DNA of 64,000 nt from Rickettsiales bacterium. Lineage in GTDB: Bacteria; Pseudomonadota; Alphaproteobacteria; Rickettsiales; UBA1997. The position numbers were made by a program, and so were the translations under genes. The stretch covers positions 14,380 to 78,379 of the forward strand of contig CANEVP010000002.1 in the NCBI GenBank assembly GCA_947442475.1. The letters run 5' to 3'. Under the pieces are notes generated by a model. That model did not search any database, was not told the DNA's origin, and saw only the letters and a list, made by a program, of their open reading frames with translations. Positions 23,478-24,662 of this stretch are shown one piece after another (the first letter of the stretch is position 1; each line of letters opens with the position of its first letter).

Positions 23478-24662
23478 TTATCTCCTTCTACCTTTTTTTG
23501 GCTTGTCATCGTCATCATCATCGTAATCGTCATCATCACCTTCTTCATCTTCATCCTCGTTTTCCTCTTCTTCTTCATCCTCATCTTCATCAAGACCAGA
23601 TTTTACAATGTCGGCGTCAAAGTCATCGAAGCCATCTTTTTGTGTGATGCGGCCCTCAGAGTTTAATTTGTCTTTGGCGGTTAGCGTAACTTTTTCCTTC
23701 GCCTCTTCAAACTCAACTCCGTAAATCACAGAATATTCGTTCGCTAAGCGGTAAATTGCAGTTTCGTAAATGATGCGCTCCGAATAAGATCTTTCGCCAT
23801 CTTCAATATCGCGAGTTAGATCGCGCAAAACTTCGGCCAAAAGCATGATGTCGCCAGAATTAATTTTAGTTTCATATTCTTGGGCGCGACGACTCCACAT
23901 GCCTTTTAGTTTTTTGACACCGCTGCGCAGAATCACAAAAACTTCATCCATTTGCGATTTAGAAATTAAATGACGCAAACCGATTTTTTCGGCGCTATTC
24001 ATTGGAATTTTGATCGTCAGTTTTTCTTTTTCGAAATACATCAAATAGCAGCTGAAATCTTGTCCCAAAACTGCGGTTTTTTCGATGCCGGTAATTTTAC
24101 CAATGCCGTGAGACGGATAAACTGCGTAATCGTTAACTTTAAACGTAACTTTGCCACGACCTTCATATTTGCGGGCAATGATGATTTTTTGTAGAGCGTC
24201 AGTTTTCTTTTCTGGGGTCTTGGCTTCTTCAGCAACTTTCTTGTTGGTATTGGCCATGATGCTTTTTGCTAAAGCGGTTCTTTGTTTGGCGGTTTCTTGA
24301 GGAGTTAGCTCTTTTTTTGGAGGCAGTTTTTTTGAGCCTTTGCTTGGTTTTTTTGTCGCCTTTACCGAAACAACTTTTGCCGGTTTTTTCTCTTTTTTAA
24401 CGGCTTTTACAACTTTCTTAACTGGCTTTTTTACTGGCTTTGGCGCTGGTTTCTTTACTGGTTTTTTGGTTTTTACAACTTTTGTTTTAACCACAACTTT
24501 AGCTTTTTTTGCCGGCAATTTTTTCACCGGTTTTTTAACAACCTTGGCAACCTTTTTATTAGGAAGAGGTTTTTTTACTGCAGCTTTTTTAACAGCTTTT
24601 GGCGCTGGTTTTTTGATAGCTTTTTTTGCAGTCACTTTTTTTTGCATTTTTTTTGCCGGCAT
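23478..24662 (-). CDS. CarD/CdnL-family RNA-polymerase-binding regulator with a Lys/Ala/Pro-rich N-terminal extension and an acidic C-terminal tail
   Basis: Core FKVNDYAVYPSHGIGKITGIEKTAVLGQDFSCYLMYF...RRAQEYETKINSGD matches CarD_CdnL_TRCF. The N-terminal approx 165 aa are KKPxxK-type repeats. The C-terminus is DEDEDEEEEENEDEDEEGDDDDYDDDDDDKPKKGRRR. Confidence 0.85.
   Translation of the reverse strand: MPAKKMQKKVTAKKAIKKPAPKAVKKAAVKKPLPNKKVAKVVKKPVKKLPAKKAKVVVKTKVVKTKKPVKKPAPKPVKKPVKKVVKAVKKEKKPAKVVSVKATKKPSKGSKKLPPKKELTPQETAKQRTALAKSIMANTNKKVAEEAKTPEKKTDALQKIIIARKYEGRGKVTFKVNDYAVYPSHGIGKITGIEKTAVLGQDFSCYLMYFEKEKLTIKIPMNSAEKIGLRHLISKSQMDEVFVILRSGVKKLKGMWSRRAQEYETKINSGDIMLLAEVLRDLTRDIEDGERSYSERIIYETAIYRLANEYSVIYGVEFEEAKEKVTLTAKDKLNSEGRITQKDGFDDFDADIVKSGLDEDEDEEEEENEDEDEEGDDDDYDDDDDDKPKKGRRR

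What the first reader, a model, noticed from the sequence alone, without database searches (positions are those of the whole stretch)
23478..24662. CarD/CdnL regulator with a histone-H1-like N-terminal domain and a poly-acidic tail
Seen: residues 1 to approx 165 are dominated by K, A, P and V in KKPxxK-type repeats (AKKAIKKPAPKAVKKAAVKKPLPNKKVAKVVKKPVKKLPAKKAKVV...). Residues approx 170-335 are a canonical CarD_CdnL_TRCF core. The last approx 55 residues are almost pure D/E (DEDEDEEEEENEDEDEEGDDDDYDDDDDD) and end in KPKKGRRR. Established: standalone CdnL proteins are about 160-170 aa. Myxobacterial CarD adds a C-terminal acidic region plus an HMGA-type (AT-hook) or histone-H1-like K/A/P-rich DNA-binding domain. 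Inference: this protein has the same three ingredients (RNAP-binding core, basic DNA-binding tract, acidic tract) in a different order, outside the myxobacteria. It may be a convergent or permuted architectural transcription factor or nucleoid protein.
Basis: partly seen in the sequence, partly recalled or inferred. Interest (0 to 1): 0.7.

Follow-up and report, generated by a model that had tools for sequence, protein, structure and literature searches.

The report
CdnL RNA-polymerase factor with charged disordered tails
This gene encodes an ordinary RNA-polymerase-binding factor (CdnL) that carries a long lysine-rich tail at the front and a short acidic tail at the back; the front tail turns out to be common in related bacteria, while the acidic tail marks one uncultured lineage, and neither has been studied.

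Summary
ORF 23478-24662 (-) encodes 394 aa. Residues 1-125 have 49 K (net +46). Residues 174-325 are a CarD_TRCF_RID plus CarD_C core. Residues 336-386 are 63% D/E (net -29). The protein ends KPKKGRRR.

The core is CdnL-type: the best solved match is M. xanthus CdnL, and the Trp wedge and W-x-R-R patch are kept. It is not an orthologue of myxobacterial CarD.

Both tails are translated and under selection. The MPAKK start is conserved, there is no conserved internal Met, indels are in frame, and dN/dS is 0.28 (N tract) and 0.03 (tail).

The full architecture is universal in a clade of uncultured Alphaproteobacteria, deposited as "Rickettsiales bacterium" (all but a few truncated entries among the 120 best database clusters).

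Lysine-rich N-terminal extensions are not special to this clade. 67 of 142 nearest representative clusters have one, usually together with the normal C-terminal AA ending. The acidic tail plus terminal basic patch is specific to this clade.

Most likely it is the housekeeping CdnL, with a polycationic tether for non-specific DNA binding and a fixed-size polyanionic tail that mimics nucleic acid or auto-inhibits. The roles of the tails are inferred, not shown.

Verdict: a new variant of a known kind, of moderate interest.

The parts
23478..24662 (-). cdnL-family CDS, 394 aa including the stop codon
   Evidence: ORF list. Pfam CarD_TRCF_RID plus CarD_C. A database copy 100% identical over 99% of the query (P0001), which was called from Met6.
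24288..24662 (-). N-terminal polycationic disordered tract, aa 1-125 (39% K; K/V/P/A rich; net +46)
   Evidence: Composition. AF2 pLDDT about 40 with no secondary structure. dN/dS 0.28 against L001, with in-frame indels. The MPAKK start is conserved across the clade.
24153..24287 (-). Clade-specific linker, aa 126-170, with two predicted helices (aa 121-139 'LAKxILA'; aa 154-162 'DAxQKxII')
   Evidence: Conserved columns in alignment A1. AF2 helices, pLDDT about 65 for the first. The motif is not shared with N-extended CdnLs of other lineages.
23967..24143 (-). Tudor-like RNAP-interacting domain (RID), aa 174-232. Includes P220 (equivalent to CdnLCc P54 and CdnLMx P51), K218 (equivalent to R52) and C205 (the V39/F36 position).
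   Evidence: Pfam PF02559, E 5e-13. Alignment to 2LWJ. Foldseek TMt 0.76-0.90 to isolated RID structures. Residue roles from PMC5324124.
23688..23945 (-). CarD_C helical domain, aa 240-325, with W256-S-R258-R259 (Trp wedge plus basic patch)
   Evidence: Pfam PF21095, E 8e-20. W256/R258/R259 are invariant in A1 and align to W88/R90/R91 of CdnLMx.
23616..23678 (-). Conserved post-core motif, aa 329-349: AKDKLNSEGRITQKDGFDDFD (acidic-aromatic 'DEFDEFD' type)
   Evidence: A329, D331, K332, L333, E336, D343, F345, D346 and F348 are invariant in A1. The motif [DE]F.[DE]F[DE] is present in 105 of 126 clade sequences.
23505..23657 (-). Polyanionic disordered tail, aa 336-386 (63% D/E, net -29), with a conserved Tyr (DDDY)
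   Evidence: Composition. AF2 shows it disordered. dN/dS 0.034 against L001. Size and charge are nearly constant across 115 clade members: 59 +/- 5 aa, net -25 +/- 3.
23481..23504 (-). Terminal basic patch, aa 387-394: KPKKGRRR
   Evidence: Of 115 clade members, 78 end in a poly-K/R run of at least 4, 19 carry [KR]GR, 10 have some other basic end and 8 are not basic. It replaces the C-terminal AA/VA of typical alphaproteobacterial CdnL.
24718..24782 (-). Conserved upstream element read as a sigma-70-type promoter: an AT-rich UP-like tract (24782-24752), TCTTGC (24747-24742) and TATCAT (24723-24718)
   Evidence: Alignment of the upstream regions of five clade members. TCTTGC is invariant, as are T, A and the final T of the -10-like hexamer. 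The consensus scanner did not call it. The function is inferred.
23437..23470 (-). Terminator-like hairpin followed by a T-run, just after the stop codon
   Evidence: 14-pair stem, 5 G-C pairs, then ATTTTTTCTT.

Best explanation
This looks like the housekeeping CdnL of an uncultured alphaproteobacterial clade.

The folded core should act like characterised CdnL/CarD proteins. The Tudor-like RID docks on the RNA polymerase beta subunit. [quoted passage not shown]

Two disordered tails are added to this core:
1. The N-terminal tail, about 125-165 aa and about +46 in charge. It most likely binds DNA non-specifically, in the way the histone H1 C-terminal region or the basic domain of CarD does. 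That would keep CdnL on the nucleoid or on promoter-flanking DNA and raise its local concentration at promoters.
2. The acidic tail, about 50 aa and about -29 in charge, nearly constant in size, with conserved Phe and Tyr residues. It most likely mimics nucleic acid. It could fold back on the basic tract or on the DNA-contacting patch (auto-inhibition, as in HMGB1 or SSB tails). It could instead compete with DNA at RNA polymerase, as the acidic C-terminal region of the Bacillus delta subunit does.

The terminal KPKKGRRR replaces the AA ending that serves as a ClpXP degron in Caulobacter, so turnover control probably differs.

Shown here: the domain identity, the conserved contact residues, that the tails are real and under selection, and their distribution. 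Inferred: DNA binding by the N tail, every role proposed for the acidic tail, and the change in turnover.
For: Core identity:
- Pfam RID plus CarD_C.
- Solved-structure matches: CdnLMx 2LWJ at E 1e-23, and Mtb and other actinobacterial CarD at 1e-18 to 1e-20.
- The top Foldseek hits are all CarD/CdnL.
- W256, R258, R259 and P220 are invariant in alignment A1. They map to residues shown to matter in CdnLMx and CdnLCc.

The tails are translated and selected:
- The MPAKK start is conserved, and no Met is conserved between it and the core.
- dN/dS against L001 is 0.28 for the N tract, 0.16 for the linker, 0.057 for the core and 0.034 for the tail, and indels are in frame.
- A conserved promoter-like element lies upstream of the long ORF.
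- The composition is not genome-wide: no other reading frame segment of 80 aa or more in the 64 kb has such tracts.

The tails are predicted disordered and the core folded.

The acidic tail is strikingly constant (59 +/- 5 aa, net -25 +/- 3), while the N tract varies (156 +/- 23 aa, +48 +/- 11). That fits a tail with a defined target and a loosely constrained polycation.

Precedents from papers:
- CarD works with any basic disordered domain, including H1 or the H1 C-terminal region (PMC8156234).
- The delta subunit's acidic C-terminal region (net -47) is tethered to RNAP and competes with nucleic acid in the main channel. A basic stretch at its N-terminus restrains it (PMC7749165).
- CdnLCc binds DNA non-specifically when basic, and it is degraded through its C-terminal AA (PMC5324124).
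Against: - No experiment exists on any member of this clade.
- The N tract has no detectable homology to H1, Hc1/Hc2 or HMGA, so DNA binding rests on composition alone.
- Net charge of the N tract and of the tail do not co-vary across 115 homologues (Spearman rho 0.17, p 0.07). This gives no support to a simple model in which the tail neutralises the N tract.
- AF2 says nothing about contacts made by the tails.
- I could not check whether these genomes also carry a short canonical cdnL. If they do, this protein may be a specialised paralogue and not the housekeeping factor.
- V39A and P54A mutants of CdnLCc, which lose the beta interaction, still grow at 30 C. So even the contacts of the core are not always essential.
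Confidence: 0.55

Rival explanations
1. The tails are tolerated low-complexity expansions with no specific function. They are drift in disordered regions of a protein whose only activity is that of the CdnL core.
For: The N tract varies widely in length and sequence (100-215 aa in the clade). No motif is shared between lineages. Its dN/dS is five times that of the core. Similar extensions come and go across alphaproteobacterial CdnLs.
Against: The composition is held across the clade in all but a few truncated entries of the 120 best clusters. dN/dS stays below 1. The acidic tail is nearly constant in size and charge and has invariant F/Y/D positions and dN/dS 0.03. No other ORF in the window has such tracts.
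Confidence: 0.15
2. The oppositely charged blocks mainly drive self-association or condensate formation, or they control solubility and turnover. Direct DNA tethering or nucleic-acid mimicry is not their main role. On this reading CdnL is a block polyampholyte that concentrates RNA polymerase.
For: The blocks are strongly segregated: +46 at the N-terminus, -29 near the C-terminus, both predicted disordered. CdnLCc interacts with itself (PMC5324124). The AA ending, a degron in Caulobacter, has been lost.
Against: There is no direct evidence. The net charge of the whole protein stays strongly positive (+23 +/- 11), which favours nucleic-acid binding over self-coacervation. Most N-extended CdnLs elsewhere have no acidic block at all.
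Confidence: 0.17
3. The start codon is mis-called. The real product is a short CdnL that starts near residue 165, and the K-rich region is untranslated leader.
For: The genome has almost no Shine-Dalgarno motifs (3 of 41 ORFs), so start sites cannot be confirmed from ribosome-binding sites. One database copy was called from Met6.
Against: The MPAKK start is conserved. No Met is conserved between residue 1 and the RID. The only invariant internal Met before residue 238 (M208) lies inside the beta-domain. The frame stays open, with in-frame indels, in nearly all of the 120 best homologue clusters. dN/dS is 0.28. The promoter-like element lies upstream of the long ORF.
Confidence: 0.03
4. It is an orthologue, or a horizontally acquired copy, of myxobacterial CarD: a CarG-dependent factor that assists ECF sigma factors.
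For: It has an acidic segment followed by a basic end after a CarD-family core. Some clade members end in RGR-containing motifs (19 of 115) that recall an AT-hook core.
Against: The core is far closer to CdnL than to the CarD N-terminal domain (E 1e-23 against 6e-4). It has no RGRP repeats. The flanking genes identified are not CarG-like. In a tree of the core regions it branches beside the other alphaproteobacterial CdnLs.
Confidence: 0.02
5. It is a secreted effector (a nucleomodulin) aimed at a eukaryotic host nucleus. The C-terminal PKKKRKK-type motif would serve as a nuclear localisation signal or a type IV secretion signal.
For: Many clade members end in PKKKRKK or PKKRKKK, which resembles the SV40 large-T nuclear localisation signal (from my own knowledge). 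Some deposits label the clade 'Rickettsiales bacterium'.
Against: The core is almost invariant and keeps the RNAP and DNA contact residues, as expected for a factor that works on the bacterium's own polymerase. The window encodes broad biosynthesis (purine, chorismate, leucine, thiamine, haem, lipid A), which does not look like a reduced obligate symbiont. No secretion genes were seen in the window.
Confidence: 0.02

Closest known systems
CdnL of Caulobacter crescentus and other Alphaproteobacteria (also called CarD in Rhodobacter sphaeroides); standalone CdnL/CarD of Myxococcus, Mycobacterium and Thermus
   Same: The same two-domain core (RID plus CarD_C). The Trp wedge, the R-R patch and the Pro of the RNAP-beta contact are conserved. 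It is monocistronic, with a sizeable upstream intergenic region of 212 bp.
   Different: Characterised members are about 160-180 aa. More than 80% of the alphaproteobacterial ones end in AA or VA, and in Caulobacter the AA ending is needed for proteolysis (PMC5324124). This protein has an N-terminal basic disordered region of about 165 aa, an acidic tail of about 50 aa and a basic C-terminus.
N-terminally extended, lysine-rich CdnL proteins of other Alphaproteobacteria (uncharacterised; e.g. loci L008-L011, L016, L017, L024, L042, L047, L051, L058, L059)
   Same: A K/A/P/T-rich disordered extension of 50-290 aa in front of the same core.
   Different: They keep the AA/VA C-terminus and have no acidic tail. 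Their extensions share no motif with this clade. The 'LAKxILA' linker helix is specific to this clade.
Myxococcus xanthus CarD (and the relatives said to carry a histone-H1-like domain)
   Same: A CarD-family RNAP-binding module joined to an acidic segment of about 50 aa and a basic disordered DNA-binding region. Any basic disordered domain can supply CarD function (PMC8156234).
   Different: In CarD both charged segments lie C-terminal to the core, and the basic part carries four RGRP AT-hooks. CarD needs CarG and is restricted to myxobacteria. Here the main basic tract is N-terminal, there are no AT-hooks and no CarG-like neighbour was seen, and the core is of CdnL type.
RNA polymerase delta subunit (RpoE) of Bacillus subtilis
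   Same: A small folded RNAP-binding domain tethers a long polyanionic disordered tail, with a short basic stretch that modulates it (PMC7749165).
   Different: There is no homology. Delta binds between the beta-prime shelf and jaw, whereas CdnL binds the beta lobe. Delta's tail is larger (net -47, against about -29 here). The functional analogy is my inference.
Bacterial histone-H1-like proteins (Chlamydia Hc1/Hc2; Pfam HC2)
   Same: A K/A/P-rich low-complexity composition.
   Different: The window protein gives no Pfam match. One homologue gives a sub-threshold HC2 hit of 29.7 bits against a cut-off of 40. This is a resemblance of composition, not membership.

Membership tests
CarD_CdnL_TRCF family, CdnL subgroup | N-terminal Tudor-like RNAP-interacting domain (PF02559) | tested here: met
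   E 5e-13, aa 174-232, full model coverage. Foldseek TMt 0.76-0.90 to isolated RID structures.
CarD_CdnL_TRCF family, CdnL subgroup | C-terminal helical CarD_C domain (PF21095) | tested here: met
   E 8e-20, aa 240-325, model positions 1-86 of 87. Helices predicted by AF2.
CarD_CdnL_TRCF family, CdnL subgroup | Conserved Trp wedge and adjacent basic residues (W-x-R-R) | tested here: met
   W256, R258 and R259 are invariant in 21 clade sequences. They align with W88/R90/R91 of CdnLMx. Their roles come from PMC4374960 and PMC5324124.
CarD_CdnL_TRCF family, CdnL subgroup | Physical binding to the RNAP beta subunit and stabilisation of the open complex | not testable with these tools
   Only the contact positions could be checked. 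P220 (equivalent to P54/P51) and K218 (equivalent to R52) are conserved. C205 occupies the V39/F36 position.
CarD_CdnL_TRCF family, CdnL subgroup | Standalone protein of about 160-180 aa; in Alphaproteobacteria a C-terminal AA/VA ending | tested here: not met
   394 aa, ending in GRRR. This is a typical trait and not a defining one: the 2010 survey lists alphaproteobacterial members of 143-456 aa.
Myxobacterial CarD | C-terminal HMGA-type domain with RGRP AT-hook repeats (or an H1-like basic domain) after an acidic segment | tested here: not met
   There is no RGRP. After the acidic segment come only 8 basic residues. The large basic tract is N-terminal.
Myxobacterial CarD | Core closer to the CarD N-terminal domain than to CdnL, with a CarG partner | tested here: not met
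   2LWJ (CdnL) E 1e-23 against 2LT1 (CarD N-terminal domain) E 6e-4. The flanking genes identified are an M23 peptidase, a GT4 glycosyltransferase, an ABC ATPase and the 2321-aa ORF. A genome-wide search for CarG was not possible.
Histone H1 / Hc2-like nucleoid proteins | Match to the linker-histone or HC2 profile | tested here: not met
   The isolated N tract has no Pfam hit even at E 10. Homologue P0031 scores 29.7 bits on HC2, below the cut-off of 40.
Histone H1 / Hc2-like nucleoid proteins | Non-specific DNA binding and compaction | not testable with these tools
   Only composition is known (39% K, net +46 in 125 aa).

The most novel reading that the evidence does not exclude
In this clade CdnL may have become a self-regulating chromatin-like transcription factor tethered to RNA polymerase. 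A histone-H1-like polycation would hold it on DNA. A fixed-size polyanionic tail would do what the acidic tail of the delta subunit or sigma region 1.1 does in other bacteria. That would be a functional analogue of Firmicute delta, fused to CdnL in a lineage that has no delta.

More broadly, basic disordered N-tails may be the prevalent, overlooked form of CdnL across Alphaproteobacteria.
Probability: 0.25. Interest if true: 0.65.

Novelty: new variant of a known kind. Interest (0 to 1): 0.45.

Why it matters
CdnL/CarD is a general factor for transcription initiation. It is important in Alphaproteobacteria, where a majority of Rhodobacter sphaeroides promoters were reported to lack a key -10 feature (PMC7703639, title seen). 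All mechanistic work has used short, tail-less proteins.

This survey suggests that about half of the nearest CdnL sequence clusters carry a basic disordered N-terminal extension. One whole uncultured clade adds a constrained acidic tail and drops the AA ending that acts as a ClpXP degron in Caulobacter.

If the tails change DNA tethering, promoter selectivity or turnover, current models built on Caulobacter, Mycobacterium and Thermus would not carry over to much of the class.

The question can be tested directly with truncations, in vitro and in Caulobacter. If the tails are inert, the finding is an ordinary housekeeping gene with decorated ends.

Tried and rejected
- **Pfam on the isolated tails.** Nothing for the N tract and only noise for the acidic tail, so homology to H1 or HC2 is rejected.
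- **NCBIfam.** Only a far-sub-threshold mfd hit that reflects the RID.
- **Consensus promoter scan.** It found none. An alignment of five upstream regions then revealed a conserved -35/-10-like element.
- **DNA tandem repeats.** Only weak arrays: period 12, 3.9 copies, in the K tract; period 3 or 6 in the acidic tract. The tracts are therefore not recent repeat expansions.
- **Charge co-variation between the N tract and the tail.** None was found, so simple neutralisation is not supported.
- **Search for a motif shared by the N-extensions of different lineages.** None was found, so one origin cannot be told apart from repeated origins.
- **Literature.** Four searches on CdnL/CarD and reading of five papers on CdnL, CarD and myxobacterial regulation gave no description of extended alphaproteobacterial CdnL beyond a length range in one table. 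A fifth search and a sixth paper covered the Bacillus RNAP delta subunit. The key CarD/H1 paper (PMC2726384) is not held.
- **Lineage.** Deposit titles give only 'Alphaproteobacteria', 'Rickettsiales' or 'Pseudomonadota bacterium'. The window has no rRNA.
- **Rejected readings.** Mis-called start, CarD orthology and secreted effector are rejected for the reasons given under the rival explanations.
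Full report
**Observation**

Pfam places CarD_TRCF_RID at aa 174-232 (E 5e-13) and CarD_C at aa 240-325 (E 8e-20).

- Residues 1-125 contain 49 Lys, 21 Val, 17 Pro and 15 Ala, and only 3 acidic residues (net +46).
- Residues 336-386 contain 32 Asp/Glu in 51 residues (net -29).
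- The last eight residues are KPKKGRRR.

The other 40 ORFs of the window have 8.4% K and 12.7% D+E. Against that background these tracts have binomial tail probabilities of 5e-21 and 8e-17. The highest counts found in those other ORFs are 24 K per 125 aa and 17 D/E per 51 aa.

**What the folded part is**

The core is a CdnL-type protein. The best solved relative by sequence is Myxococcus xanthus CdnL (2LWJ, E 1e-23). Next come actinobacterial and mycobacterial CarD (1e-18 to 1e-20). The N-terminal domain of M. xanthus CarD itself scores only 6e-4.

An AlphaFold2 model built on a 21-sequence alignment gives a beta-rich RID (aa 179-232, pLDDT 80-86) and a helical domain (aa 235-339). All the top Foldseek hits are CarD, CdnL, or the Tudor domains of Mfd and UvrD.

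Residues known to matter in characterised homologues are kept. W256-S-R258-R259 aligns with W88/R90/R91 of CdnLMx, and by the shared W-x-R-R motif it corresponds to W90/R92/R93 of CdnLCc. P220 corresponds to P51 (CdnLMx) and P54 (CdnLCc), and K218 to R52. All are invariant in the clade. Their roles are described in PMC4374960 and PMC5324124.

**The tails are translated and selected**

- Most of the 120 best database clusters begin with MPAKK or a close variant. They share a K-rich N-extension (mostly 100-215 aa), an acidic tail (about 40-68 aa) and a basic C-terminus. The exceptions look like alternative start calls or truncated entries.
- No Met is conserved between residue 1 and the RID. The first invariant internal Met (M208) lies inside the beta domain.
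- Against the close relative L001, dN/dS is 0.28 for the N tract, 0.16 for the linker, 0.057 for the core and 0.034 for the tail. All indels are in frame.
- The genome hardly uses Shine-Dalgarno sequences (3 of 41 ORFs), so the lack of one here means nothing.
- Five clade members share a strongly conserved element upstream of the long ORF. It consists of an AT-rich tract, then TCTTGC, then 16-17 nt, then TATCAT, with the T, A and final T invariant. I read this as a sigma-70-type promoter with an UP-like element. It would give a leader of about 50 nt. This is an inference.
- A hairpin followed by a T-run comes right after the stop codon.

The model predicts aa 1-117 and aa 340-394 to be disordered. 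Two short helices lie in a clade-specific linker: aa 121-139, the conserved 'LAKxILA' segment, and aa 154-162.

**How common the architecture is**

The complete architecture (K-rich N tract, core, acidic tail) defines one clade of uncultured Alphaproteobacteria.

- Genome-collection members are MAGs, some with lake-style sample names. NCBI calls two of the proteins 'Rickettsiales bacterium' and 'Pseudomonadota bacterium' proteins. Two MAG titles ('Rickettsia typhi', 'Rhizobium sp.') look like mislabels.
- In a neighbour-joining tree of the core regions, the clade and a more distant relative (L006) form a long separate branch beside the other alphaproteobacterial CdnLs.
- The window itself encodes broad biosynthesis: purine, chorismate, leucine, thiamine, haem, lipid A and peptidoglycan. 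The organism does not look like a strongly reduced symbiont.

The N-terminal extension alone is much more widespread.

- An exhaustive search with the core against 1.84 billion representative proteins gave 4115 hits. Of the 142 complete-looking sequences among the best 150, 88 have at least 40 aa in front of the core, and 67 of those extensions are at least 18% K+R.
- Only 9 of the 142 have an acidic tail. Seven of those are the top hits, which belong to this clade.
- 70 of the 142 end in AA or VA.
- Clustering at 50% identity over-counts fast-evolving disordered regions, so this is a fraction of clusters, not of genomes.
- In the genome collection, 17 of the 80 loci outside the clade carry a K-rich extension of at least 50 aa. 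They are scattered over several branches: MAGs titled Rickettsiales, Micavibrio, Hyphomicrobiaceae, Amphiplicatus, Marinicaulis and others. Nearly all keep the AA/VA ending.
- These extensions share composition but no motif. One ancient origin with many losses cannot be told apart from repeated gains.

**What the literature says**

A 2010 survey lists alphaproteobacterial CarD-N-terminal-like proteins of 143-456 aa in a table. Term searches of that paper found no discussion of the long forms (PMC2919716).

The 2017 Caulobacter study surveyed alphaproteobacterial CdnL. It reports more than 50% identity and more than 90% coverage relative to the Caulobacter protein, and a C-terminal AA or VA in more than 80%. 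In Caulobacter the AA ending is needed for proteolysis. Searches of the text for 'extension' and 'stretch' found nothing (PMC5324124).

None of the 40 best-ranked of the 78 papers since 2016 that mention CdnL has a title about an extended form. So the long forms have been seen, but I found no study of them.

**Mechanism**

Established for relatives: the RID binds RNAP beta. The C-terminal domain contacts promoter DNA around -14 to -10 and holds the transcription bubble open (PMC8156234, PMC5324124). I expect the same here, because the contact residues are invariant.

N tail (inferred). A disordered polycation of +46 should bind DNA non-specifically. [quoted passage not shown] This shows that 'a basic, structurally disordered' domain is enough in that context (PMC8156234).

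Acidic tail (inferred). Its size and charge are almost fixed across 115 clade members (59 +/- 5 aa, net -25 +/- 3). The N tract varies (156 +/- 23 aa, +48 +/- 11), and the two do not co-vary (rho 0.17). The tail also holds invariant aromatic and acidic positions (DxFDxF, DDDY). This fits a module with a defined target better than a simple counter-charge.

The nearest functional precedent is the Bacillus RNAP delta subunit. There a folded domain tethers a disordered tail of net -47, which competes with nucleic acid in the main channel. A basic stretch restrains that tail (PMC7749165). Intramolecular auto-inhibition of the DNA-binding surfaces is the other obvious option.

The basic C-terminus replaces the AA ending, so ClpXP-dependent clearance as in Caulobacter probably does not apply. 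That too is an inference.

The parallel with myxobacterial CarD holds at the level of ingredients. It does not hold for ancestry. The core is CdnL-type, there are no RGRP AT-hooks, and no CarG-like gene was seen beside it.

The order core, acidic tract, basic end is in fact the same as in CarD, but the basic end is only 8 aa and the main basic tract is N-terminal. 'Histone-H1-like' describes composition only.

**Gene neighbourhood**

The order GT4 glycosyltransferase, M23 peptidase (divergent), cdnL, ABC ATPase is conserved in L001-L004, and the ABC ATPase also follows cdnL in L006.

The 2321-aa ORF just downstream of cdnL in the window is missing from these relatives. Even in L001, where the flanking proteins are 96-98% identical, the ABC ATPase gene follows cdnL directly. 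The large ORF is therefore a strain-specific insertion and not part of this feature.

**Verdict**

This is a real, conserved and selected variant of a well-known transcription factor. What is new is the pair of charged disordered tails, above all the constrained acidic tail with its basic end. A second point is that basic N-tails are common on alphaproteobacterial CdnL yet unstudied. It is not categorically new, and no function of the tails has been shown.

- Interest: 0.45.
- Confidence in the identity of the protein: about 0.95.
- Confidence in the proposed roles of the tails: about 0.4-0.5.

**Main caveats**

- I could not test whether these genomes also hold a short canonical cdnL.
- The lineage could not be placed more precisely.
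- All statements about the function of the tails are inference.

Noticed in passing
window 16454-23419 (-): A 2321-aa ORF lies directly downstream of cdnL. Its only Pfam hits are a dynein-type AAA_5 domain (aa 1876-2003) and a weak, sub-threshold AAA_16 match over the same P-loop (aa 1875-1897). It is absent from the relatives: in L001, where the flanking proteins are 96-98% identical, the ABC ATPase gene follows cdnL directly. It therefore looks like a strain-specific insertion of about 7 kb.
   Followed up: partly
window, all 41 ORFs of at least 150 aa: Only 3 of 41 start codons are preceded by a Shine-Dalgarno-like motif. The organism seems to initiate translation largely without one.
   Followed up: no
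window 47555-51046 (+) and 53883-54689 (+): A 1163-aa ORF and a 268-aa ORF have no Pfam match at the thresholds used (1e-5 and 1e-6).
   Followed up: no
window 24340-24711 (+), 23472-23666 (+), 23438-23593 (-): Short ORFs overlap cdnL on the opposite strand or in another frame, with poly-Phe/Leu/Ile or poly-Met/Lys translations. They are by-products of the AAA/GAT-rich coding tracts and not genes.
   Followed up: yes
L005 (Treponema sp. MAG), CarD-family ORF: A spirochaete CarD-family protein has a 62-aa tail that is 60% D/E, and no N-terminal extension. Acidic tails on this family have therefore arisen outside the window's clade too.
   Followed up: no
L003 and L004 record titles: MAGs titled 'uncultured Rhizobium sp.' and 'Rickettsia typhi' carry the clade-specific cdnL and the same gene order as the window. 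The titles are probably wrong taxonomic labels.
   Followed up: partly
window 34329-39161 (+) and 40656-42362 (+): A 1610-aa NAD-specific glutamate dehydrogenase with a full domain set, and a long FtsZ of 568 aa. Both are ordinary and are recorded for annotation.
   Followed up: no
window 24752-24782 (-): An almost invariant AT-rich tract (CTTTTTTAAATAAGAATATTTTTTTTGAAAAAAAA) lies upstream of the putative cdnL -35 element in the five clade members whose upstream regions were aligned. It lies in the region shared with the divergent M23 peptidase gene, so it could serve either gene.
   Followed up: partly
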